Shown in pieces: positions 2,715-46,825 of a DNA stretch of 46,914 nucleotides. The stretch's first letter is position 1, and the number at the start of each line of letters is the position of its first letter. The notes under the pieces were generated by a model. It was given only the letters and a program-made list of their open reading frames with translations, was not told where the DNA came from and made no database searches. Location: positions 1-46,914 of the IMG/VR virus record IMGVR_UViG_3300032277_000009. The stretch is one strand, 5' to 3'. This DNA is from a virus. Position numbers and translations under genes: made by a program.

Positions 2715-4456
2715 TGCCCGCCACGCTCACCCAGAAGCACGCGGAACATACGCGTGATCCTCGCCCGCTGCCGACACGCCAGCAGGAGCGGCTGCAGCAA
2801 CTCAAGAACGAATACAACCAAGGTTGGCGTTCGCATCACGAGTTGCTGTTCGAGAACTTCCTGCCGTTCGGCGGGCGCTTCTTCGTCGACGATCGCAACG
2901 TCGGCGACCGCCGCCACGGCACGATCATCGACAGCACGCCACTGCACTCAGTGCGCACGCTCGCTGCCGGCCTCATGTCGGGCGCGACGTCGCCGGCACG
3001 TGTGTGGTTCCGTCTGCGCTTGAAGCAAGCCGAGCTGAACGAAGACCCGGCTGTGCAAGCGTGGCTCAGCGCGGCGAACGAGATCATGCTCGCGTGGATC
3101 GCGAATTCGAATCTCTACCACGAGCTACACCGCGGTTACGAAGAGATGGCCGTGTGTGGCACGTCGATCATCGTCCTGTTGCCGGACGATGAATCGGTGT
3201 TCCACGCCTACGGCGCAACGGCCGGCCAATACTTCTTGGACGCCGACGCGCGCGGCAAGATCAACACGTGCTACCGCGAGTTTCAACTCACCGTCGCGCA
3301 GGTCGTGCGTGAGTTCGGCTTCGACAACTGCCCTGGCTGGGTCAAGCGCGCGTTCAACGACGAAGAGTTCGGCACCGAAGTGCACGTGTGCCATGCGATC
3401 GAACCGAACGATGACCGCTACGTCGAAGGGTCAGCGCTCAAAGAGCAACTTCGATTCCGCTCGACATACTTCGTGTGGGGCGAGACCGAGAAAGAGAACG
3501 ACGTTGGCGGCCAGTTTCTGCGCGACGGCGGCTTCGATGAGTTCCCAGTGTTGGCGTTCCGCTGGAACGTTAGCGGCGGGGATATTTACGGGAACTCGCC
3601 CGGGATGGAATCGCTCGGGGATGCGATCCAGTTGCAGCACGAGCAGGAACGCAAGAGCGAGAACATCGACTTGCAGACGCGCCCGCCGTTGCAGGTGCCG
3701 CCATCGCTGAAGCACCACGAGGTCGACGGCGAAGCTGGGGGCATCACCACGGTGCCGAACGGTGGCCGTGAGTCGGGCATCCGCACGTTGTTCGAGACGC
3801 GTCTGCAGCTCGACCACTTGCGCGAAGACATCGAAGACGTGCGCATGCGCATCCGTCGCACGATGTTCGTCGACTTGTTCATCATGCTGCAGCAGATCGA
3901 TAAGACGATGACTGCACGTGAGGTGATACAGCGGCAAGAAGAGAAGCTGCTCATGCTCGGCCCGATGCTGGAGCGCCTGTTCGACGACGGGTTGAAGCCG
4001 CTGATCGACTTGATCTTTTACTACCTGGCCGAAGCGGGCATGTTCCCGCCTCCGCCGGAGCAGCTCGCTACCGCAGAGCTTGACGTGCAGTTCGTGTCGC
4101 CGCTCGCGCAGGCGCAGCGCGGTATCGGCATCAACGCCATCGACCGCTTCTTGCAGACCATCGGTGCTCTTGGCAGCTTGAAGCCGAACGCGCTCGACGT
4201 GCTTGACGAAGACGAGACGGCACGCCATTACGCCGACATCCTCGGCATCGATCCGGACTTGCTCAAGGATCCCGAGGTCATCGCACGCATCCGCGCCGAT
4301 CGCGCGAAGCAACAGGCTGCGCTTGAGCAGGCCGACGCGCTGCAGAAGGTTACAGGAGCGCAGAAGAACGTGGCTGATGCTGCCGCCGCAGCGCCAGTCG
4401 ACGCCATCACGCAAGCCACCGGCTACAGCAACCCGAACGCGGCGGTCGGAGTGTGA
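2714..4456 (+). CDS. Portal (head-to-tail connector) protein, T7 gp8-like class
   Basis: 580 aa in the position after TerL. Shows IIDSTPLHSVRTLAAGLMSGATSPARVWFRLRL and GNSPGMESLGDAIQLQHEQERKSENIDLQTRPPLQVP, typical of podovirus connector proteins. TAATG overlap with the upstream gene. Confidence 0.85.
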   Translation: MPATLTQKHAEHTRDPRPLPTRQQERLQQLKNEYNQGWRSHHELLFENFLPFGGRFFVDDRNVGDRRHGTIIDSTPLHSVRTLAAGLMSGATSPARVWFRLRLKQAELNEDPAVQAWLSAANEIMLAWIANSNLYHELHRGYEEMAVCGTSIIVLLPDDESVFHAYGATAGQYFLDADARGKINTCYREFQLTVAQVVREFGFDNCPGWVKRAFNDEEFGTEVHVCHAIEPNDDRYVEGSALKEQLRFRSTYFVWGETEKENDVGGQFLRDGGFDEFPVLAFRWNVSGGDIYGNSPGMESLGDAIQLQHEQERKSENIDLQTRPPLQVPPSLKHHEVDGEAGGITTVPNGGRESGIRTLFETRLQLDHLREDIEDVRMRIRRTMFVDLFIMLQQIDKTMTAREVIQRQEEKLLMLGPMLERLFDDGLKPLIDLIFYYLAEAGMFPPPPEQLATAELDVQFVSPLAQAQRGIGINAIDRFLQTIGALGSLKPNALDVLDEDETARHYADILGIDPDLLKDPEVIARIRADRAKQQAALEQADALQKVTGAQKNVADAAAAAPVDAITQATGYSNPNAAVGV

Positions 4457-28562: not shown

Positions 28563-28883
28563 CTAGTCGAGCAGCTCGGCTTTGCGGCGCTTCCGCTTGC
28601 CTTGCTTCCTGCTCTTGGCGAGCGCCTCGCGAATCACTTCTTGAGGCACATCGAGGCCGCGAGACAGACGGTGAACCGTCCACATCTTCACGGCCGCTGG
28701 GTCTGGTTTGCCGGCCATCATGTCGAACAGATGCGCGCGGCTGATGTTGCACTGCATCGCGATCGTCTCGATCTTGATGTCGGGTTGGTCCGGATCGCGC
28801 CCGATCCGCTGCGCCCGTTGCACGAGGTCGCGCAGGCTCGGATCATTCGGGACGTCGGGGATCTTTGGGTCTCTTTTCTTCAT
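28563..28883 (-). CDS. HTH DNA-binding regulator (XRE-like)
   Basis: 106 aa. IETIAMQCNISRAHLFDMMAGK helix-turn-helix pattern and a basic tail KSRKQGKRKRRK. ATGA coupling to the upstream mini-ORF. Confidence 0.65.
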   Translation of the reverse strand: MKKRDPKIPDVPNDPSLRDLVQRAQRIGRDPDQPDIKIETIAMQCNISRAHLFDMMAGKPDPAAVKMWTVHRLSRGLDVPQEVIREALAKSRKQGKRKRRKAELLD

Positions 28884-28995: not shown

Positions 28996-31077
28996 CTAGC
29001 CTTGGAAGTGTTTTGATCGGTAGCCTTCGGTTTTCACGGGGCAGCCGGCAGCCCATTTGGGTTTGTCGCCCATCCAATATTCGAACTCGTCGACGCTGCG
29101 TTCACCGGCGGGGACTTCGGCTGCGGCCGAGTCGTGCACGTGCAGGACGATCGGGAAGCCCTTGTCTTCGAGCTTCACCAACGCATCGCCTAGCAGGTCT
29201 CGCGCGACGGCCTGCGTCACGTTCTCTACGAGCTTCCCACCGTAGGTCGACTCCCACACCATCGACTTCTTGTCCTTGCCGACGGTCTTGAACTGCAGCT
29301 CCATCGACTCGAACTCATGCACGACGAGTTCACCGTCGGCGTCGACAGCGACGATCTCTTTCTTCGCCTTCTTGACGCGCGGCTGCCAGTAGCGCAGCAC
29401 GCGACCGCTCGGCAAACGAATCAGCAGTGCCGATTTCGTGCACCGGATGCGCAGATGCGGGCCAACCTTGATCGGAGTGTTGCGGTTGTTGACGGCGGCC
29501 TGGCACGCGTCTTCGAGTTCCTTCCAGAACTGGACGATCTCGGGGTTGTTCTCCCGCCACGCACGTTGCACTCGATAGGCTTCCTTGCGCGACATCTCGA
29601 CGCGATACGGCGCCTTGCGTGCGGTGTCGATGAACTTCAACACGCCCATGCCGTAGCCGAGCGCGAGCGTGCACACCTTGCCGAGTTGCCGGTCTTGTTT
29701 GGTGACCTTCTCGACAGCGATGTCCATGACCGTCGCGGCGGCCTTGATGTAGATGTCTTCGCCCGCGGCGAACACGTCGAGGATCGGCTTGCTGTCGGCG
29801 AGCCAGGCGACGACGCGCGCTTCGATCGCTGAGTAGTCGGCGGCGATCAGGTCGTGCCCGGGCGCGGCGATCAGCATCGCGCGCAGCGACTCGCTCATCG
29901 CTTCGAGCGGGCGCTCTTCGGTGAGCAACAGCGCGTCGATGTTTTGCGTGCGGATCAGCCTGCGGACATGTTCGCTGCGATCGTCTTCGCGCTTGTCCTT
30001 CGGCATGTTGTGCACTTGGATGCCGCTCGAAGCCCACCGTCCGGTGTGCGCAATGGAATAGCGAAGTGCGCCCCTCAGACGGCCGTCGCTACTGACCATC
30101 TTCGGGACGCGCTTCAGCTTCGCGAGTGACGTGCTCTTGTTGGCTTCGATGCGATTATCCAGCACCGCCCGGACAGCACCGTTGAGGTTGCCTTCGCCGA
30201 GCATCTTCTCGACAGCATCCTTCGATAACGTCTCGACCTTCTTGGTCTCTCCCGCGTTGTTCTTCTTGGCGACGACTGGCAAGTCGACGTCCATCTCTCT
30301 GAGCCACAGCTTCAACGCGTGCGGGTTGGTGCTGTTGGCGCAGAGTGAGCCGGTGATGCGGAACACATCGGACGCGAGCAGTTCCTTGCGCCGTTCCGCC
30401 ATGTTCGCCATTTGCGTGACGAACTCTTGGTCGATCGCGACGCCGCGTTGGTTGATCCGCTGGTCGATGTGCCATAGACGCAGCTCGGTGTTGATCATCG
30501 GCGGCATGCGCCACCACACGAACAGCGTCGCGATCACGTCGTTCTCGCAGTAGGTGATCAGCCGCTTGATCTGCTCGTCGGTTGGCTCGGGATACACGTA
30601 GCGTTGGAACGCGTCGCACCAACTGGCTTTCATCAGCTTGCGCATCTCGGCGTTGCCGGCCATGTCCTTGCCGGGCGAACCCTTGAAGACCTTAGCGACA
30701 CCTTCGAGTGTCACCGGCAGGTTCGCGGCGACGGCGGTGGCTTGCGTGTCGCGCCACTGCTCGATCTTGTAGGCCGGCCAGCCGAACACAGGCGCGAGGA
30801 TGTGCCGCCAGATCGCCATCTCGAAGCCGGCGTTGTGCGCGAGCATCAGCTTGCCGGCGGTGATCCACTTGCGAATCGACGCCGGCAGCTCCATGCCTGG
30901 AACCCAGGTGAACACCGTTGGCTTCTCGCCTTTCTTGCTCGCTGCGGCAAACGACACGCACCACACGCGCGTGCTCTCGTGCTGCGCGTAAGCGTCGTTC
31001 CCCTGCTTGATGTCAGCGGCGCTGCAGGTCTCGATGTCGACGCAGAGGATCTTCAAGATACACCCTTCGCCCTCCAC
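28996..31077 (-). CDS. Family A DNA polymerase with an N-terminal 3'-5' exonuclease (start is the GTG at 31077 or the TTG at 31056)
   Basis: Exo I LCVDIETCS. Motif A DLIAADYSAIEARVVAWL. Motif B RQLGKVCTLALGYGMG. Motif C VLHVHDSAAAEV. Confidence 0.92.
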   Translation of the reverse strand: MEGEGCILKILCVDIETCSAADIKQGNDAYAQHESTRVWCVSFAAASKKGEKPTVFTWVPGMELPASIRKWITAGKLMLAHNAGFEMAIWRHILAPVFGWPAYKIEQWRDTQATAVAANLPVTLEGVAKVFKGSPGKDMAGNAEMRKLMKASWCDAFQRYVYPEPTDEQIKRLITYCENDVIATLFVWWRMPPMINTELRLWHIDQRINQRGVAIDQEFVTQMANMAERRKELLASDVFRITGSLCANSTNPHALKLWLREMDVDLPVVAKKNNAGETKKVETLSKDAVEKMLGEGNLNGAVRAVLDNRIEANKSTSLAKLKRVPKMVSSDGRLRGALRYSIAHTGRWASSGIQVHNMPKDKREDDRSEHVRRLIRTQNIDALLLTEERPLEAMSESLRAMLIAAPGHDLIAADYSAIEARVVAWLADSKPILDVFAAGEDIYIKAAATVMDIAVEKVTKQDRQLGKVCTLALGYGMGVLKFIDTARKAPYRVEMSRKEAYRVQRAWRENNPEIVQFWKELEDACQAAVNNRNTPIKVGPHLRIRCTKSALLIRLPSGRVLRYWQPRVKKAKKEIVAVDADGELVVHEFESMELQFKTVGKDKKSMVWESTYGGKLVENVTQAVARDLLGDALVKLEDKGFPIVLHVHDSAAAEVPAGERSVDEFEYWMGDKPKWAAGCPVKTEGYRSKHFQG

Positions 31078-35814: not shown

Positions 35815-36323
35815 CTCTTGCGCGGGCGATGAGCCTTGCCACGGTTGTAGCGAGCGTGCCTTTTCAGCCGACGCTTACGCTGGATCTTCTCGCGCCACTT
35901 CTCAGTAGCGGTGAGGCCAACACCGAGTGCGGCCTTCGTGCGCCGCAGCAAGTCGGGGTCTTCCTTCGCGCCGCGTTGCAGGTCGTAGTAGTCGAGCGTC
36001 GCGTCGTAGCGCACGGGGTCGGGCGTCTCGGCCCCGGCGTAGAACTCTTCAGCTCTGCCAACGATCCGTCGCGCTTCTACACTGTTGGGGTCGCCGTGGA
36101 CCTTGCGTTGCATCGGCGACCTGTAGGTGCGGAGCGACGCCATCGCGTCGGCTTCCGTCTCGCCTGGCCGAAGCGGTTCCTCGTCGCGCGGGTCGAACAA
36201 GATGTCTGCCATCTGATCGAGGGTCCGCACGGGGATCCGTTGACGGTGGTGAATGCCGGCGAACTGTTCGCGCTCAATGCGCGTCGTGTCCTTCGGGATG
36301 ACGGGGCTGTTTTCATCTAGCAT
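35802..36323 (-). CDS. Hypothetical protein with a basic C-terminus (173 aa)
   Basis: ORF in the operon orientation. C-terminal KIQRKRRLKRHARYNRGKAHRPRKR. Confidence 0.5.
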   Translation of the reverse strand: MLDENSPVIPKDTTRIEREQFAGIHHRQRIPVRTLDQMADILFDPRDEEPLRPGETEADAMASLRTYRSPMQRKVHGDPNSVEARRIVGRAEEFYAGAETPDPVRYDATLDYYDLQRGAKEDPDLLRRTKAALGVGLTATEKWREKIQRKRRLKRHARYNRGKAHRPRKRCGR

Positions 36324-36852
36324 CAGTAATCTCCTTCACGCCCTTGCTCCAATTCTCGTGAGCCCACAACGGGCGCAGGTTGGTGTAGTGCCAGCACTCC
36401 GGGTCAGCCGGGTCGTCAAAGCTGGCGACGGGTCGGATGTGGTCGATGTGCCATTCGCTGCGGTTGCCCCAGGTCATGCCCGGCTTGAACTGCGCTTCGA
36501 TCCAAGCACGCAGACCTTCGCGATCTGTGCCGGCGAGCGCCACCACGGAGCACGGCTTGGCGCGGCCGTTGATAGCTCGATAGAAGCGCGTGCGGAGCGC
36601 CCTCACAAGGTTAGGGGTCGGCTTGGCGTGGTAGCGCCGATTGGTTTCGCGCACTTTCTCGCGGTTCGCTTCGTAGTAGCGCCGCCTGTATTCGCGCAGT
36701 TTCTCGCGATTCGCTTCGCGGTAGCGTTGCTGAGCCTCTCGCACTTTCTCCGGGTTCGCTTCGCGGTAGCGTCGCTGAGCCTCTCGCACTTTCTCCGGGT
36801 TCGCTTCACGCCAACGGCGCTGGCGTTCGTGCGGGTTGTTTTCATCGATCAT
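36313..36852 (-). CDS. HNH (His-Me finger) endonuclease with an N-terminal 15-aa repeat array
   Basis: EWHIDHIRPVASF...NLRPLWAHENWSKG. Four REAN(P/R)EK(V/L)RE...RRY repeats. ATGA coupling at 36849-36852. Confidence 0.8.
   Translation of the reverse strand: MIDENNPHERQRRWREANPEKVREAQRRYREANPEKVREAQQRYREANREKLREYRRRYYEANREKVRETNRRYHAKPTPNLVRALRTRFYRAINGRAKPCSVVALAGTDREGLRAWIEAQFKPGMTWGNRSEWHIDHIRPVASFDDPADPECWHYTNLRPLWAHENWSKGVKEITDAR
36631..36810 (-). repeat. 4 x 45-bp in-frame tandem repeats inside the HNH gene (the two copies at 36721-36810 are nearly identical)
   Basis: cctctcgcactttctccgggttcgcttc recurs at 36735 and 36780. Encodes EANPEKVREAQ(R/Q)RYR. Confidence 0.85.
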
Positions 36853-37037
36853 TGCACCCGCTCCCCGATGATGTCCCGCACCTTGGCTCGCTGTCTCGAC
36901 GACAGCACTCGATCTGCGTTCAAGGTCCGCACGCAAGACTCGACGAAATCGATCTCCCATGCAGACAGCCCTTCGCCGCGGTCGTCGAGCATCTTGACGG
37001 CGCGGCGGTCTTCCACTTTCTGTTCATCGGCGTTCAT
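36849..37037 (-). CDS. Hypothetical protein (62 aa)
   Basis: Start-stop coupled at both ends. Confidence 0.5.
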   Translation of the reverse strand: MNADEQKVEDRRAVKMLDDRGEGLSAWEIDFVESCVRTLNADRVLSSRQRAKVRDIIGERVQ

Positions 37038-42335: not shown

Positions 42336-42484
42336 GGAACCCGACCATATGTCTGGTCGAGTCTGGTTGCAACCGCTAGTAACGGATTTCGAAAAGTGCT
42401 ACGGTTCGCCACCCGCCGTCAAAAGACGAGGCCCGCTACGTCCTTTCGGTCGCAGCGGGCCTCGGCAATGAAGTTCTGACACTG
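42336..42484. promoter_or_regulatory. Divergent control region between the two gene arms
   Basis: Perfect palindrome GGTTGCAACC (42365-74). gtctggt repeated at a 10-bp period (42351, 42361). 9-bp inverted repeat gaggcccgc/gcgggcctc (42428-36 / 42455-63), followed on the minus strand by gtctttt. Minus-strand -35/-10-like TTGCAA/TATGGT. Confidence 0.5.
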
Positions 42485-44674
42485 ATGTCAATTACAGATG
42501 CTACGCCGAAGAGCCAATCCCCGCAACGTTTCATCCCCCGCATCTTGCGCGAAACACCTCGCTGGTGCTGCTGGAAGCTCTCCCAGAACCGGGCGGGCGA
42601 CCTGACAAAACGCCCCGACTGCAGCACCAAGGACGAAGACGCGCAACGCGCCTTCGACGCGGTCAAGCAGAAGTGCACCAGCAAGCAAGGCATCGGGTTC
42701 ATCACCGGTGGGCGGGTCAAGACGCCGCGCGGCTACCTCGTAGCCTTCGACTACGACAACTGCCACGACCCCAACACCGGTGGAGTAAGCCCGTGGGCGA
42801 TCGACGCGGTCGAGGCGTTCGGCAACAGCTTCACCGAGATCAGCCCTAGCGGCTACGGCTTGCGGCAGTGGGTGTTGGTCAAGCGCTTGCCCGAAAGGCG
42901 CATCCGGTCGGTGATCCCCGTGACTGGCGGCGGCATCGAAGGGTGCACCAAGAAGGTCGAGTGTCAGCTCTTCGGCATCGGCGCGCACGGCGGTGGCTAC
43001 GTCACGGTAACCGGCAACCACCTGGTCGGCACCGCGACCGAAGTGATGCGCATCGAATCGATCGAGAAGGTCTTCGAGCACTTCGACTTCCCGATCGATT
43101 ACGCAGCCGCTGGAGAAGAACTCGTCGACCTACCCGAAGGCACAGGCGACGAGCCGTCGCTCGACGTGATCGACGTCGCTCTGCGCTCGCAGCCGAACGG
43201 TGTGACGTTGATCGATGGCGACTGGGAAGAAGCCAAGAACGGCCGGAACGAGCTATTCGAGAGCGCCAGCGAAGCCTACTTCGAACTCGAACAACGTGCA
43301 CTCGTCGCTGCGAACGGCCACGGCGAGCAAGCCCTGCAGTTCCTGCTCGATCGCACTGCCTGGGGTCACGGCGACATCGAGAACAGCAAGGACCCGGGCA
43401 AATACGAGCGCGAGGATTGGGTCAGAGAAGAGCTGCTGCGCACGTGCGGCAAGACCTACGTCCTGAACCCCGGCGAGGTCTTCGACGAGATCGACGAAGA
43501 CGAGATGCAAGCGCAGGTCGAGGCGTCGATCAAAGCTGCGAACGATGCGCTCAACAGTGAACGTGCGAAGCAGGCCGCGAAGAGCCCGATCGCGCAGATC
43601 GAAGCGCCGATAGCGATGGGTGTTGAGCCGCCGCGTCGTGTCTACCTGATCAAGCATCCGGATGGCACCGGTCTCCTACCGCTCGGCAAAGCTGGTCTGA
43701 TCAGCGCAGCTGGCGGCACGGGGAAGACCACCGCTCTTGTGCAGCTCGCGATCAGCGTCGCGACTGGCCGGCGCTGGTTCGACCACTTCCGCGTCGGCGG
43801 TGATGACTGCGGCAAGCGCGTGCTGTTCTTGATGGGCGAGGAAGACGTCGACGAGGTCCAGCGCAAGCTGTGGCACACGATGCACGCCATGGGTCTCTCG
43901 CTAGCCGAGCGGGCAGAAGTCGCAGCACGCGTCGAATGCGTGCCCCTCGCCGGCCACGCGCTGCCCTTCCTCAGCCAGAACAAGAACGGCGCCATGCTGA
44001 GCACACCGCACAGCGACGCTCTGATGCAGCGGCTCGACGCGGGTGAAGACTGGGGGCTCGTCATCGTTGACCCGATCAGCCGCTTCTGTGGCGTCAACGT
44101 CGAAGGTGACAACATCCTCGCCACACGCTTCGTGCAGGAGCTCGAGCGCTACGCAGCGGCCCCGGGCAACCCGACCGTGCTCGGCGTCGGCCACACGAGC
44201 AAGGCCGCGAGAGCGCAAGGCAGCGCCGAGCAGCGTGGCGTCACAGGCCTGATCGATGCCGTGCGCTTCGGCGCCTCGATGCTGAGCCGCGACGACGGCC
44301 GCGTGCTGTTCGAGGTCCAGAAGAACAACTACGCGCCACCCAGCCCAGAGCCGGTGTTGCTCATGCGCGGCAAGGAAGGGCACCTGTCAGTCGAGTCGGA
44401 CAGCGACCGCGCAGCACGTGAAGCACTGGACGAGAACCGACGCCGGGAGACGGACGAAGCCAAGATCGACCGCCTGATCGCTGAGTTCGAGAAGGTCGTT
44501 GAAAAGAAGCCGGGCGTCAAACAAGCCGACCTCAAAGCGATGGTCGCCGGACGTAACGTCGACATGAACAAGGCACTCATTGTGGCAGTTGATTCGGGCA
44601 GACTCATCGTCGAGATCGGGCCGAAGAACGCTAAGCTTTTCCGCCTGCCCGAACGGAGCGGGCTACTCGGATGA
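42485..44674 (+). CDS. Bifunctional primase-polymerase (AEP prim-pol) fused to a RecA/DnaB-like P-loop helicase
   Basis: 729 aa. Prim-pol motifs GIGFITGG, LVAFDYDNCHD, TEISPSGYGLRQWV. C-terminal Walker A ISAAGGTGKTTALVQLA and Walker B-like GLVIVDPISRF. Confidence 0.85.
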   Translation: MSITDATPKSQSPQRFIPRILRETPRWCCWKLSQNRAGDLTKRPDCSTKDEDAQRAFDAVKQKCTSKQGIGFITGGRVKTPRGYLVAFDYDNCHDPNTGGVSPWAIDAVEAFGNSFTEISPSGYGLRQWVLVKRLPERRIRSVIPVTGGGIEGCTKKVECQLFGIGAHGGGYVTVTGNHLVGTATEVMRIESIEKVFEHFDFPIDYAAAGEELVDLPEGTGDEPSLDVIDVALRSQPNGVTLIDGDWEEAKNGRNELFESASEAYFELEQRALVAANGHGEQALQFLLDRTAWGHGDIENSKDPGKYEREDWVREELLRTCGKTYVLNPGEVFDEIDEDEMQAQVEASIKAANDALNSERAKQAAKSPIAQIEAPIAMGVEPPRRVYLIKHPDGTGLLPLGKAGLISAAGGTGKTTALVQLAISVATGRRWFDHFRVGGDDCGKRVLFLMGEEDVDEVQRKLWHTMHAMGLSLAERAEVAARVECVPLAGHALPFLSQNKNGAMLSTPHSDALMQRLDAGEDWGLVIVDPISRFCGVNVEGDNILATRFVQELERYAAAPGNPTVLGVGHTSKAARAQGSAEQRGVTGLIDAVRFGASMLSRDDGRVLFEVQKNNYAPPSPEPVLLMRGKEGHLSVESDSDRAAREALDENRRRETDEAKIDRLIAEFEKVVEKKPGVKQADLKAMVAGRNVDMNKALIVAVDSGRLIVEIGPKNAKLFRLPERSGLLG

Positions 44675-44683
44675 TCAATCTTT

Positions 44684-44867
44684 CTGGTAGTTCCCTGGTA
44701 GTTCCCAGGTCGTTCCGGGAACTGGGTTCCGGGTGGAGGAAATCACCCCCAAAAAGGGGAGGTTCCAAACCCCCCTTTAGGGGGGATTTTCCGGAACTAC
44801 CAGGCGGAACTACATCACGTCGCTCGGGAAGCTCTGGTCGTTCCGCCTTCGAAACGGGAACTACCAG
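44684..44867. repeat. Iteron array: at least 7 copies or variants of CTGGTAGTTCC in both orientations
   Basis: Forward copies at 44684-94, 44695-705 and 44706-16 (caggtcgttcc), all at an 11-bp period, plus 44834-44 (ctggtcgttcc). Reverse copies ggaactaccag at 44793-803 and 44857-67, and a partial ggaactac at 44806-13. Palindrome ggaac-tgg-gttcc at 44718-30. Confidence 0.85.
44767..44790 (+). terminator. Rho-independent terminator after the primase-helicase gene
   Basis: aaa-cccccc-ttta-gggggg-atttt. A smaller cccc-aaaaa-gggg hairpin precedes it at 44747-59. Confidence 0.6.
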
Positions 44868-44876
44868 CCACCGGTG

Positions 44877-45275
44877 ATGACAGCAACCATTCGATTGCCG
44901 TGGCCCCCGACGAACAACTGGCCGAACCGAACGAAGAACAGATTCGTGCGTCAGAAGGCGCGCAAAGAGTCGCGTCGAGTCGCCTCGCTCTGCGCGTTCC
45001 AGCAGGACCTGGTGTTGCCCGAAGGCCCGCTGTTCGTGGTGCTGAGATTCCACCCGCCGCGACTCGGCGGCTTCGACATCGACAACGCACACGCGGCGTG
45101 CAAGGGCTACTTGGACGGACTGTTCGAAGTGTGCGGCCAGGACGACGGCGTCATCGACGCAGCGCTGCCCGTGCGGTGTAGCAAGCGCAAGGGTGGTGTG
45201 GTGGTTGCTGAGTTCCGCCCGATGGCTGCGGTGCGTGAGTGGCTCTTCGACAGGCCGTCGAGACTGTTGGACTGA
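44877..45275 (+). CDS. rusA: RusA-like Holliday junction resolvase
   Basis: About 132 aa. LPWPPTNNWPNR...FVVLRFHPPRLGGFDIDNAHAACKGYLDGLF...QDDGVI matches the RusA pattern (D.DN..K...D.L...DD). A GTG at 44874 is an alternative start. Confidence 0.75.
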   Translation: MTATIRLPWPPTNNWPNRTKNRFVRQKARKESRRVASLCAFQQDLVLPEGPLFVVLRFHPPRLGGFDIDNAHAACKGYLDGLFEVCGQDDGVIDAALPVRCSKRKGGVVVAEFRPMAAVREWLFDRPSRLLD

Positions 45276-45278
45276 CCT

Positions 45279-45680
45279 ATGCACACGAAACTTCTCGGTG
45301 ACTGCTTCTCGCTGATGCTCGGACACGAACGGCCTGCGTTGGTCCTGTCGGACCCGCCTTACGGAATCACGCAGCAGGTGTGGGATCAGCCTGTCGACTG
45401 GGAGCGGCCGTCACGATCGAGAAGCACTCACCGCTACTTGACTGATCGGGGCCGATTGTGGCAGACTTTCAGCATGCCGTCCGTCCTGCCGAGCTGCCTG
45501 TCATGCGAACACTGCCAACCCAACCACAGCGAGGGCGCCGGGTATGTGTGCCGTAGGCACCCGCCGTCGTTCGTGACGAACACCGGCCTCAGCCCGGACC
45601 GCGCCGCCTACCCGGTATTGCCCGATACGCGTGGGTGCGGTGAACACAAGCCGTGCACAGCCGAAAGAGAGACCAAATGA
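45279..45680 (+). CDS. Chimeric ORF: N-terminal remnant of a DNA methyltransferase (DPPY motif) joined to a Cys-rich small-protein segment
   Basis: KLLGDCFSLMLGHERPALVLSDPPYGITQQVWDQPVDWE is an MTase N-terminus, but no AdoMet-binding or target-recognition region follows. From the internal ATG at 45474: MPSVLPSCLSCEHC...GYVCRRHPP...DTRGCGEHKPC. Confidence 0.55.
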   Translation: MHTKLLGDCFSLMLGHERPALVLSDPPYGITQQVWDQPVDWERPSRSRSTHRYLTDRGRLWQTFSMPSVLPSCLSCEHCQPNHSEGAGYVCRRHPPSFVTNTGLSPDRAAYPVLPDTRGCGEHKPCTAERETK

Positions 45681-45925: not shown

Positions 45926-46296
45926 ACCGCCGAACATTCATCGCTGGTGTGTTGAAGAGCGCAGTCGCTGCGGCCGTGGCGCCGACCGTGCTGCGTGAGT
46001 CAAACACGCCGAGCATCTTTCCTGAAGGCTCGCGCGCGGGCCTCAACGAGCCACTCACAGCGACCGAGGTGCGCGAACTCAACGAAGCTTTCCTGCGCCG
46101 CGAAGTGCCGAAGATGCCCAACCTCTTCAGTGAGATGTATGCAGCGCTGGAGCGTGTGCCGAAGGGTGGGCGCATGGTGAACCGGCCATCTATGTTCATC
46201 ACGAACGAACGCACGTATCGCGCGCTCGAACAGTTGTCGCAGTTGACGCGCACATCGTTGCCGCCGGCACGGCCATGGACACGACTCCATGCCTAG
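45922..46296 (+). CDS. Small protein with a twin-arginine (Tat)-like signal peptide
   Basis: MNRRTFIAGVLKSAVAAAVAPTVL: an RR-x-F-I motif, a hydrophobic h-region and an AxA-like site. ATGA coupling upstream. Confidence 0.55.
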   Translation: MNRRTFIAGVLKSAVAAAVAPTVLRESNTPSIFPEGSRAGLNEPLTATEVRELNEAFLRREVPKMPNLFSEMYAALERVPKGGRMVNRPSMFITNERTYRALEQLSQLTRTSLPPARPWTRLHA

Positions 46297-46825
46297 GAAG
46301 CGCGTAACCAAGAAGGTCGCGTCGCCATCGAAGCACAAGGCGACAAAGCCCCGCAGCGAGTGGCCGATCAGGCCCGACGAGAAGCTCACTGAGTCGTTGA
46401 GCGGTCTGCTCGGCAGCAGCAAGCTCAAGTTCGACCCGAAGGAATGGAAGCCCGTCGTTATCGCGTGGCTCGACTCAGGGCAGATGCTGTCGAAGATGCT
46501 GCGCATGCCGAACACGCCGTCACGGCGCCTGGTCGACATGTGGCGAGCAGACGACGAAGAGTTCGCAAACGACTACCACGCCGCAACCAGCGCGCTCTAC
46601 GACACGCTCGCCGACCAAGTCATCGAGATCGCCGACGGCGAGCCCGAACTCGTGAAGCTGTTCACGGAGATTCGCTACCAGATTGACGCGCGCATCCGCA
46701 TGTTGTCACGTTGGACGCACCGATACGCCGAGAAGCGGCAGGTCGAGCAGACCGGCAATGGCACTGTTCAGATCATCACCGGTGTTCCAAACCCAGACAC
46801 GGACTCAGAAGGCTTGATGCAATGA
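46289..46825 (+). CDS. terS: Terminase small subunit
   Basis: 178 aa with a basic N-terminus. SGQMLSKMLRMPNTPSRRLVDMWRADDEEFANDYHAATSALYDTLADQVIEIAD...IRYQIDARIRMLSRW follows the HTH plus oligomerisation-helix pattern of small terminases. Lies upstream of terL across the junction. Confidence 0.75.
   Translation: MPRKRVTKKVASPSKHKATKPRSEWPIRPDEKLTESLSGLLGSSKLKFDPKEWKPVVIAWLDSGQMLSKMLRMPNTPSRRLVDMWRADDEEFANDYHAATSALYDTLADQVIEIADGEPELVKLFTEIRYQIDARIRMLSRWTHRYAEKRQVEQTGNGTVQIITGVPNPDTDSEGLMQ

What the first reader, a model, noticed from the sequence alone, without database searches (positions are those of the whole stretch)
44675..44873. Dense array of 11-bp iterons (CTGGTAGTTCC) in both orientations around a terminator, immediately downstream of the primase-helicase: candidate origin, pac site or operator array
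Within about 185 bp there are:
- three head-to-tail copies at an exact 11-bp period, roughly one helical turn (44684, 44695, and 44706 with 2 mismatches);
- a fourth forward variant at 44834;
- two perfect reverse copies (44793, 44857) and a partial one (44806);
- a GGAAC-TGG-GTTCC palindrome (44718-30).

The array flanks two G/C homopolymer hairpins (CCCC-A5-GGGG and CCCCCC-TTTA-GGGGGG-ATTTT).

A related half-motif, TCTGGT(C/T)G, occurs twice at a 10-bp period in the divergent control region (42351-42368). This is the clearest non-coding organised structure in the genome. Its position next to the prim-pol/helicase favours an origin. A TerS recognition (pac) site or an operator array for the HTH protein (28563-28883) are alternatives.
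Basis: seen in the sequence. Interest (0 to 1): 0.62.

Follow-up and report, generated by a model that had tools for sequence, protein, structure and literature searches.

The report
Phage replication origin iteron array
The cluster of short repeats just after this uncultured phage's primase-helicase gene is most likely the site where that enzyme's own DNA-binding tail docks to start genome copying; this is a known kind of origin, seen here in a phage group that has not been studied.

Summary
The repeats fill the 199-bp gap between the primase-helicase gene (stop at 44674) and the RusA gene (start at 44874).
- There are seven copies of GT(A/C)GTTCC and ten GTTCC cores, against 0.5 expected per 200 bp. 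There is no second cluster in the 46.9-kb circular genome.
- The "half-motif" at 42352/42362 occurs at chance frequency.

Comparative evidence:
- All 17 related contigs (primase-helicase 39-64% identical) carry the same layout, starting 2-30 bp after the stop codon: 2-3 head-to-tail repeats at 9-11 bp, a C-run/G-run hairpin, usually an A/T-rich patch, then repeats in the opposite orientation.
- The repeat word differs between lineages: GTGGTTCC, ACGGTTCC, CCGTTTCC, GTTGGTCC, CATCTGCC.

The protein:
- Its last ~75 residues fold as a winged helix.
- This tail diverges sharply between relatives whose repeats differ, while the helicase body stays 80-94% identical.
- Its primase domain is homologous to SaPI5 PriRep5, whose origin has the same layout. 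Its helicase is like RSF1010 RepA.

The overlapping 68-aa ORF is not conserved.

Verdict: iteron-type replication origin, confidence about 0.65. It is a new member of a known kind. This scan has noted the same pattern on other DNA. No binding or replication data exist, and read-based tests were unavailable.

The parts
42485..44674 (+). Replication protein of 729 aa. It has an N-terminal AEP-type primase, a RepA-like (AAA_25) ring-helicase domain and a C-terminal winged helix.
   Evidence: Pfam AAA_25 E=1.2e-28. PHROG DNA primase and primase/helicase families. A family profile matches SaPI5 PriRep5 7OLA at E=2e-11 over residues 13-258, NrS-1 primase-polymerase 6A9W at E=3e-10, and RSF1010 RepA 1G8Y at E=6e-9.
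44474..44671 (+). Coding region of the C-terminal winged-helix domain, the proposed iteron reader.
   Evidence: AlphaFold2 model with mean pLDDT 83.5, and 90-95 over the H2-H3-wing part. Foldseek top hits are all winged-helix proteins: MarR, Zalpha, CadC, SSV1 F-93. The profile hits SlyA/MarR at E about 1e-3.
44684..44716 (+). Left iteron block: three head-to-tail 11-bp units (CTGGTAGTTCC, CTGGTAGTTCC, CAGGTCGTTCC).
44718..44730 (.). Palindromic pair of iteron cores, GGAAC-TGG-GTTCC.
44746..44791 (.). Central structured segment. It reads CCCCC-A5-GGGG, then an iteron core GGTTCC (44763-44768), then CCCCCC-TTTA-GGGGGG followed by ATTTT. It is the proposed melting, hairpin-extrusion and loading zone, and may also act as a terminator in this phage.
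   Evidence: DNA fold z = -6.9. An equivalent C-run/G-run hairpin is present in all relatives folded.
44793..44813 (-). Right iteron block: one exact reverse copy (44793-44803) and one partial reverse copy (44805-44813).
44834..44867 (.). Convergent iteron pair forming a 34-bp imperfect palindrome: a forward copy with one mismatch at 44834-44844 and an exact reverse copy at 44857-44867.
   Evidence: I1.
44874..45275 (+). RusA-like Holliday-junction resolvase, first gene after the array. It marks the right boundary and is not part of the element.
   Evidence: PHROG phrog_34 E=5e-16. A resolvase-annotated gene follows the array in the relatives too.

Best explanation
The 199-bp gap is the phage's iteron-type origin of replication, read by the primase-helicase encoded just upstream.

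Proposed mechanism:
1. The C-terminal winged helix of each protomer binds a GT(A/C)GTTCC iteron.
2. On the left, three head-to-tail sites at 11-bp spacing place the bound domains on one face of the helix. On the right, sites in the opposite orientation do the same from the other side.
3. Cooperative binding assembles the RepA-like ring helicase around the central ~75 bp. That segment holds C-run/G-run hairpins with A/T loops and tracts, which melt or extrude.
4. The fused AEP primase makes the first primers.
5. The phage's own family-A polymerase (28996-31077) extends them.

Shown here: the array exists and is unique in the genome. Its position and layout are conserved in 17 relatives while the repeat word changes. 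The C-terminal domain has a winged-helix fold, and it diverges where the iterons differ. The primase is homologous to PriRep5 and the helicase to RepA.

Inferred: binding, melting, helicase loading and priming at this site.
For: 1. Uniqueness and density of the repeats.

2. Conserved position. In all 17 related loci the array starts 2-30 bp after the primase-helicase stop codon. The distance to the terminase genes and the number of genes in between both vary.

3. Conserved layout with a changing word.
- Each locus has 2-3 direct copies at 9-11 bp, inverted copies on the far side and 5-9 copies per gap.
- The words are GTGGTTCC, ACGGTTCC, GCGGTTCC, CCGTTTCC, GTTGGTCC and CATCTGCC.

4. Central hairpin. 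Folding z-scores are below -2 in 16 of the 17 loci folded, window included.

5. A/T-rich patch. In 13 of 17 relatives the array holds a 30-mer among the lowest 0.5% GC of the locus.

6. The C-terminal domain is a winged helix.

7. The winged helix diverges where the iterons differ.
- Pairs sharing an iteron keep 58-87% identity in the winged helix.
- Pairs with different iterons fall to 8-41% there, although the helicase windows just before are 80-94% identical.
- L008 (CATCTGCC) against L050 (GCGGTTCC): helicase body 68%, neighbouring resolvase 69%, small protein before terL 55%, winged helix 35%.

8. The primase domain is homologous to SaPI5 PriRep5 (PDB code checked). PriRep5's origin lies immediately downstream of the gene. 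It has 6-12 iterons on both sides of a central region, in opposite orientation, read by a C-terminal winged helix (PMC9371898).

9. The origin of plasmid pRN1 is a stem-loop 3' of a prim-pol/helicase/winged-helix gene (PMC4234260).
Against: - There is no experimental or read-based evidence.
- The formal test for iteron/winged-helix covariation is only marginal: partial Mantel r=0.25, p=0.056. The pairwise contrasts share lineages and are not independent. Several lineages with the same GTGGTTCC word have quite different winged helices.
- The window itself lacks a clear A/T-rich unwinding element. The central segment is 56% GC against a genome mean of 63%.
- GC skew shows no turning point here.
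- The gap also lies at the early/late gene boundary, so it must hold transcription signals whatever else it does.
Confidence: 0.65

Rival explanations
1. Transcription boundary element. The hairpin terminates the early primase-helicase transcript, and the repeats are operator or activator sites that control a late promoter for the RusA, terminase and structural-gene operon. This need not exclude the origin function.
For: - The gap separates the replication gene from the co-oriented late genes.
- In the window the second hairpin is followed by ATTTT.
- Several relatives have a TATAAT-like A/T patch after the hairpin, for example CATATATAATGAG in L005.
Against: - The hairpin is followed by a T-run in only 4 of 17 loci. 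In six it is followed by an A-run and in the rest by neither.
- The scan found no sigma-70-like promoter, and no plus-strand terminator in the gap.
- Seven to ten sites in both orientations is many for an operator.
- The repeats track the primase-helicase's own DNA-binding tail.
Confidence: 0.15
2. Packaging (pac) site recognised by the Sf6-type small terminase.
For: - TerS (46289-46825) and TerL (485-1876) lie 1.4-2.5 kb downstream on the same strand in a circularly assembled genome.
- Repeat arrays can serve as TerS binding sites.
Against: - The array abuts the primase-helicase stop codon in every relative. One to four genes and 0.5-1.6 kb separate it from the terminase genes.
- From general knowledge, pac sites of P22, Sf6 and SPP1-type phages lie in or next to terS.
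- Between L008 and L050 the repeat word is completely different. Yet the small protein in the terS position is 55% identical overall and better conserved in its N-terminal half.
Confidence: 0.05
3. The repeats simply encode the 68-aa ORF 44671-44877, a real small protein whose start overlaps the upstream stop codon (ATGA) and whose stop overlaps the RusA start.
For: The frame is open across the whole gap and has tidy overlaps at both ends.
Against: - It has no Pfam or PHROG match.
- No gene was called in the equivalent gap of any of the 11 relatives fetched with gene calls.
- Which frames are open in the gap is inconsistent between relatives, and the closest ones (L005, L006) have stops in every plus-strand frame.
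- The genome is 63% GC, so open frames arise easily by chance.
- The repeats occur in both orientations.
Confidence: 0.02
4. Plasmid-prophage partition (centromere) site, or a site for a recombinase or resolvase.
For: - Centromere sites are often arrays of direct and inverted repeats.
- A junction resolvase gene always follows the array.
Against: - No ParA/ParB, integrase or repressor was found among the ORFs scanned. The genome looks lytic, with its own polymerase, exonuclease, SSB and helicases.
- RusA-type resolvases are structure-specific, not sequence-specific (general knowledge).
Confidence: 0.03

Closest known systems
SaPI5 PriRep5 and its ori (Staphylococcus aureus pathogenicity islands; self-loading initiator-helicases; PDB 7OLA; PMC9371898)
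   Same: - A primase, a helicase and a C-terminal winged helix sit in one polypeptide.
- The origin lies immediately downstream of the gene.
- There are 6-12 short iterons on both sides of a central region, with at least two per side in opposite orientation.
- The primase domains are homologous by sequence profile (E=2e-11).
   Different: - The helicase here is a RecA-fold, RepA-like (AAA_25) domain, not the AAA+ SF3-type motor of PriRep5.
- The iterons are 8-11 bp rather than 5-6 bp.
- The centre is a pair of G/C-run hairpins with short A/T tracts rather than a plain AT-rich stretch.
- The element belongs to a complete lytic-looking podophage, not a satellite.
Plasmid pRN1 ORF904 and its stem-loop origin, with the similar stem-loop proposed 3' of the Bordetella phage BIP-1 replication gene (PMC4234260, PMC2777425)
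   Same: - The protein has the prim-pol, helicase and winged-helix architecture.
- The essential origin lies within about 170 bp 3' of the gene and is built around a conserved stem-loop whose sequence varies between relatives.
   Different: - pRN1 has an SF3 helicase, and no iterons were found in its origin.
- Here the iterons dominate and the hairpin is shorter.
IncQ plasmid RSF1010 oriV with RepA, RepB' and RepC (PMC8567376; RepA structure 1G8Y)
   Same: - The helicase domain is of the RepA family.
- The origin combines iterons with G/C-rich and A/T-rich parts and hairpin-forming inverted repeats. The detailed oriV layout is from general knowledge.
   Different: - RSF1010 splits the functions among three proteins, with a separate iteron-binding initiator, RepC. 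Here primase, helicase and DNA-binding domain are fused.
- Similarity to ssiA/ssiB was not tested.
Satellite phage P4 alpha protein with ori and crr
   Same: The primase, helicase and winged helix sit in one protein that binds repeated words at the origin (architecture cited in PMC2777425; ori/crr from general knowledge).
   Different: - P4 uses a DnaG-type primase and an SF3 helicase.
- P4 needs two separated repeat clusters (ori and crr). Here there is a single cluster.

Membership tests
SaPI/PICI-type Rep-ori module (self-loading initiator-helicase with adjacent iteron origin) | The origin lies immediately downstream of the rep / pri-rep open reading frame. | tested here: met
   The first iteron starts 10 bp after the stop codon in the window, and 2-30 bp after it in 17 relatives.
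SaPI/PICI-type Rep-ori module (self-loading initiator-helicase with adjacent iteron origin) | Six to twelve short iterons, with at least two on each side of the centre pointing in opposite directions. | tested here: met
   There are seven copies of GT(A/C)GTTCC: three forward on the left, two reverse plus a convergent pair on the right.
SaPI/PICI-type Rep-ori module (self-loading initiator-helicase with adjacent iteron origin) | An AT-rich region at the centre of the origin. | tested here: inconclusive
   The window's centre is 56% GC against a genome mean of 63%, with only short A/T tracts. In 13 of 17 relatives the array holds a 30-mer in the lowest 0.5% GC of the locus.
SaPI/PICI-type Rep-ori module (self-loading initiator-helicase with adjacent iteron origin) | A C-terminal winged-helix domain in the helicase that reads the iterons. 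| tested here: met
   The winged-helix fold is predicted with pLDDT 83.5, and structure and profile hits go only to winged-helix proteins. Reading of the iterons is inferred from the divergence pattern alone.
SaPI/PICI-type Rep-ori module (self-loading initiator-helicase with adjacent iteron origin) | The helicase motor is of the AAA+ SF3/MCM-like type, as in Rep1, Rep2 and PriRep5. | tested here: not met
   The motor is AAA_25 / RSF1010 RepA-like with a RecA fold. Only the primase domain matches PriRep5.
SaPI/PICI-type Rep-ori module (self-loading initiator-helicase with adjacent iteron origin) | The protein binds its cognate origin and drives replication of an origin-bearing plasmid. | not testable with these tools
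   This needs EMSA or footprinting and a replication assay.
P4 alpha / ori-crr origin | Two separated iteron clusters (ori and crr) are required. | tested here: not met
   There is a single cluster in the complete genome.
P4 alpha / ori-crr origin | A DnaG/Toprim primase fused to an SF3 helicase. | tested here: not met
   The primase is AEP-type and the helicase RepA-like.
IncQ (RSF1010) oriV system | A RepA-family hexameric helicase. | tested here: met
   Pfam AAA_25 at E=1.2e-28. PDB 1G8Y at E=1e-4 with the single sequence and 6e-9 with the family profile.
IncQ (RSF1010) oriV system | A separate iteron-binding initiator (RepC) and ssiA/ssiB priming hairpins. | not tested
   No RepC search or ssi comparison was run. 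Here the DNA-binding domain is fused to the helicase.
pRN1-type stem-loop origin | A conserved stem-loop 3' of a prim-pol/helicase/winged-helix gene, conserved in structure but not in sequence. | tested here: met
   The DNA fold z-score is -6.9 for the window gap. Z-scores are below -2 in 16 of the 17 loci folded, each with a central C-run/G-run stem. Inverted iterons contribute to these scores.
Intrinsic (rho-independent) terminator | A G/C-rich hairpin followed directly by a U-tract on the transcribed strand. | tested here: inconclusive
   The window has a 6-bp G/C stem followed by ATTTT. The scan did not call it on the plus strand. Only 4 of 17 loci have a T-run after the hairpin.
pac site of a headful-packaging phage | Location in or next to terS, with packaging-series termini starting there. 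| tested here: not met
   The location criterion fails: terS starts 1.4 kb downstream, with RusA and three further ORFs between.

The most novel reading that the evidence does not exclude
The element may be a composite origin that no studied system shows in this form.
- A RepA-type (IncQ-like) ring helicase, fused to a PriRep5-like primase and a winged helix, would load at a C-run/G-run hairpin that presents an iteron core at its tip. That would be a hybrid of the SaPI iteron origin, the pRN1 stem-loop origin and IncQ oriV.
- The same occupancy would gate read-through from the early primase-helicase gene into the late resolvase, terminase and structural operon. Late expression would then be coupled to origin firing.
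Probability: 0.15. Interest if true: 0.5.

Novelty: new member of a known kind. Interest (0 to 1): 0.3.

Why it matters
- It gives a testable origin, and an initiator to go with it, for a family of ~45-kb uncultured aquatic phages. No deposited phage shares more than about 30% identity over part of the primase-helicase.
- The family offers natural specificity swaps: six different repeat words paired with diverged winged helices on otherwise similar helicases. These could be used to study how self-loading primase-helicases read their origins.
- It extends the "origin right after the primase-helicase gene" rule to a RepA-type helicase.
- Beyond that it is an ordinary annotation result. This scan has already noted the same pattern many times on other DNA, though not for this protein family.

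Tried and rejected
- **Run search.** No read-start, coverage-slope or terminus analysis could be done.
- **GC skew.** The profile shows no turning point at the array. AT skew simply follows the direction of transcription. Uninformative.
- **Close relatives in viral contigs.** A single-protein query found none. The alignment query gave only 5 loci. Most relatives came from the search for homologous proteins plus look-up of encoding contigs and from the metagenome scan.
- **Deposited phages.** They hold only distant partial matches, at most about 30% identity over at most 49% of the protein.
- **Half-motif in the divergent control region.** Occurs at chance frequency.
- **Second-densest GTTCC patch, about 3541-3650.** Its flanks are unrelated, so it was rejected as chance.
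- **Iterons in the promoter region of the primase-helicase gene in relatives.** No consistent occurrence, so there is no evidence for autoregulation.
- **Pfam on the N-terminal 300 aa alone.** No hit. Only the family profile against the PDB showed the primase homology.
- **Partial Mantel test of iteron against winged-helix distance.** Marginal, p=0.056. It is reported as such and was not refined further.
- **Homology search with the 68-aa ORF.** Not run. The lack of a conserved frame or a called gene in the relatives was judged sufficient.

Full report
**Setting**

The window is a complete IMG/VR virus record of 46,914 bp. Its two ends repeat the same 127 bases, so it is a circular assembly.
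- Genes run rightward from about 42.4 kb, through the record's ends, to about 28 kb. They run leftward from 42.3 kb back to 28.5 kb.
- The leftward block encodes a family-A DNA polymerase, an Enc34-type SSB, a DUF2800 PD-(D/E)XK nuclease, an exonuclease, an endonuclease VII-like protein, an HNH endonuclease and an SNF2 helicase.
- No integrase, partition protein or repressor was seen among the ORFs scanned.
- The rightward block starts with a 729-aa replication protein (42485-44674). The 199-bp gap under study follows, then a RusA-like resolvase (44874-45275), three small ORFs, an Sf6-type small terminase (46289-46825) and the large terminase (485-1876).

**The observation**

- CTGGTAGTTCC is exact at 44684 and 44695 (forward) and at 44793 and 44857 (reverse). 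It has one mismatch at 44834 and two at 44706.
- A partial reverse copy lies at 44805-44813.
- The palindrome GGAAC-TGG-GTTCC lies at 44718-44730. The two G/C hairpins lie at 44746-44759 and 44771-44786, the second followed by ATTTT.
- GGTMGTTCC matches six times in the genome, all within the array, against 0.9 expected.
- The GTTCC core occurs ten times in 200 bp against 0.53 expected. The next-densest patch has five copies with unrelated flanks.
- The single strand folds far better than shuffles: z = -4.8 as RNA and -6.9 as DNA.
- The "half-motif" at 42352 and 42362 is a word at chance frequency and lacks the core.

**Relatives**

The replication protein has about 25 full-length homologues at 36-63% identity, several on contigs of 38-47 kb. 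I fetched 17 distinct loci.
- Gene order is conserved: SNF2 helicase on the opposite strand, the primase-helicase, a gap of 100-265 bp, a resolvase-annotated gene, then the terminase genes.
- None of the 11 loci fetched with gene calls has a gene called in the gap.
- Every gap holds a repeat array that begins 2-30 bp after the stop codon.
- Each array has 2-3 head-to-tail copies at 9-11 bp (7-10 bp in one locus), usually an inverted pair, a hairpin whose stem is a C-run paired with a G-run, and further copies in the opposite orientation. That makes 5-9 copies per gap in most loci.

The repeat word differs between lineages:

| Word | Loci |
|---|---|
| GTAGTTCC | the window |
| GTGGTTCC | eight loci |
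| ATGGTTCC | L048 |
| ACGGTTCC or CCGGTTCC | four loci |
| GCGGTTCC | L050 |
| CCGTTTCC | L021 |
| GTTGGTCC | L017 |
| CATCTGCC | L008 |

- Folding z-scores of the first 150 nt after the stop are below -2 in 16 of the 17 loci folded, window included.
- In 13 of 17 relatives the array holds a 30-mer within the lowest 0.5% GC of the whole locus, usually right after the hairpin.
- The window is the weak case. Its centre is 56% GC and has only A5, TTTA and ATTTT tracts.
- The G-run is followed by a T-run in only four loci (the window, L005, L010, L012), by an A-run in six, and by neither in the rest. What is conserved is therefore the hairpin itself, not a strand-specific terminator.

**The protein**

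- Pfam finds AAA_25 at residues 382-575. The best solved relative of that part is the RSF1010 RepA helicase.
- A profile of 21 family members matches SaPI5 PriRep5 (7OLA, E=2e-11) over residues 13-258. It also matches the NrS-1 primase-polymerase (E=3e-10). The 7OLA code is confirmed as PriRep5 in PMC9371898.
- The last 100 residues were modelled from an 18-sequence alignment, with mean pLDDT 83.5 and 90-95 over the core. The model is a long helix followed by helix, helix and a beta-hairpin wing.
- Foldseek's top hits are all winged-helix proteins: MarR family, Zalpha, CadC and SSV1 F-93. The sequence profile hits SlyA/MarR at E about 1e-3.

**Does the winged helix track the repeats?**

A partial Mantel test compared iteron distance with winged-helix distance while controlling for the rest of the protein. 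It gave r=0.25, p=0.056. The converse test, iteron against body while controlling for the winged helix, gave r=-0.005. This is marginal.

The identity profiles are clearer.
- Pairs with the same word keep 58-87% identity in the last windows: L005/L006, L005/L012, L015/L050, L015/L051.
- Pairs with different words drop to 8-41% there, although the helicase windows just before are 80-94% identical: window/L005, window/L006, window/L017, L008/L015, L008/L050, L010/L020.
- For L008 against L050 the word is entirely different. The helicase body is 68% identical and the winged helix 35%. The neighbouring resolvase is 69% identical and the small protein before terL 55%.

These pairs share lineages, so the pattern is suggestive rather than proof.

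**The overlapping ORF**

The 68-aa frame 44671-44877 has tidy overlaps at both ends but no family match. Which frames are open in the gap varies between relatives. The closest relatives have stops in every plus-strand frame. It is most likely a chance open frame in 63% GC DNA.

**Interpretation**

The best reading is an iteron origin read by the adjacent gene's own product.

The closest studied system is the SaPI Rep/PriRep-ori module. Its origin lies immediately downstream of rep and has 6-12 iterons split around a central region. At least two iterons per side point in opposite directions, and a C-terminal winged helix reads them (PMC9371898).

Other comparators:
- The pRN1 origin is a stem-loop 3' of a prim-pol/helicase/winged-helix gene. 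The same paper proposes a similar stem-loop 3' of the Bordetella phage BIP-1 replication gene (PMC4234260).
- RSF1010 uses the same helicase family but has a separate initiator and primase (PMC8567376).
- P4 alpha has the same three-part architecture (PMC2777425) but needs two clusters.

As a member of the SaPI type, the locus fails one feature: the helicase motor family.

Rival readings:
- A transcription boundary role is not excluded and may coexist with the origin.
- A pac site is unlikely on position, and on conservation of the protein in the terS position.
- A coding ORF and a partition site are each unlikely.

**Limits**

Nothing here shows binding, melting or initiation. GC skew is uninformative.

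This scan has noted arrays 3' of primase-helicase genes many times on other DNA and reached the same reading.

Noticed in passing
window 44869-44876; right edge of the gap in L005-L007, L009, L010, L015, L018, L020, L021, L048-L051: A short motif, C(C/G)GGTG, sits at the right boundary of the array in nearly all loci. In the RusA-bearing clade its GTG coincides with, or sits beside, the resolvase start codon. In the other clade it lies about 25 nt upstream of the start. Its role is unknown: start-codon context, promoter part or priming site.
   Followed up: no
window 45279-45680: This 133-aa ORF starts like an N6/N4 DNA methyltransferase, with the DPPYG motif near residue 25, and then loses all resemblance. 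Relatives carry full methylase genes at this position (PF00145 in L005, PF01555 in L011). It is probably a truncated or frameshifted methylase remnant.
   Followed up: no
window 36627-36806: Four tandem 45-bp repeats (76-100% identical) lie inside the minus-strand gene 36313-36960, which has an endonuclease VII-like C-terminal part. They would encode a 15-residue repeat.
   Followed up: no
L008-L010, L049-L051 downstream of the array, compared with window 44874-45275: The gene after the array is always annotated as a junction resolvase, but of two different PHROG families: phrog_34 in the window's clade and phrog_244 in the other. The phrog_244 proteins carry an ECK motif.
   Followed up: partly
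window 42352-42369: GTCTGGTCGA/GTCTGGTTGC is a 10-bp direct repeat in the divergent early control region. It is unrelated to the iterons and not enriched genome-wide. It could be an operator for an early regulator.
   Followed up: partly
L008 5380-5525: A run of N (a scaffold gap) is flanked by a duplicated ~60-bp stretch in the related contig just downstream of its array. It looks like an assembly artefact and limits what can be read there.
   Followed up: no
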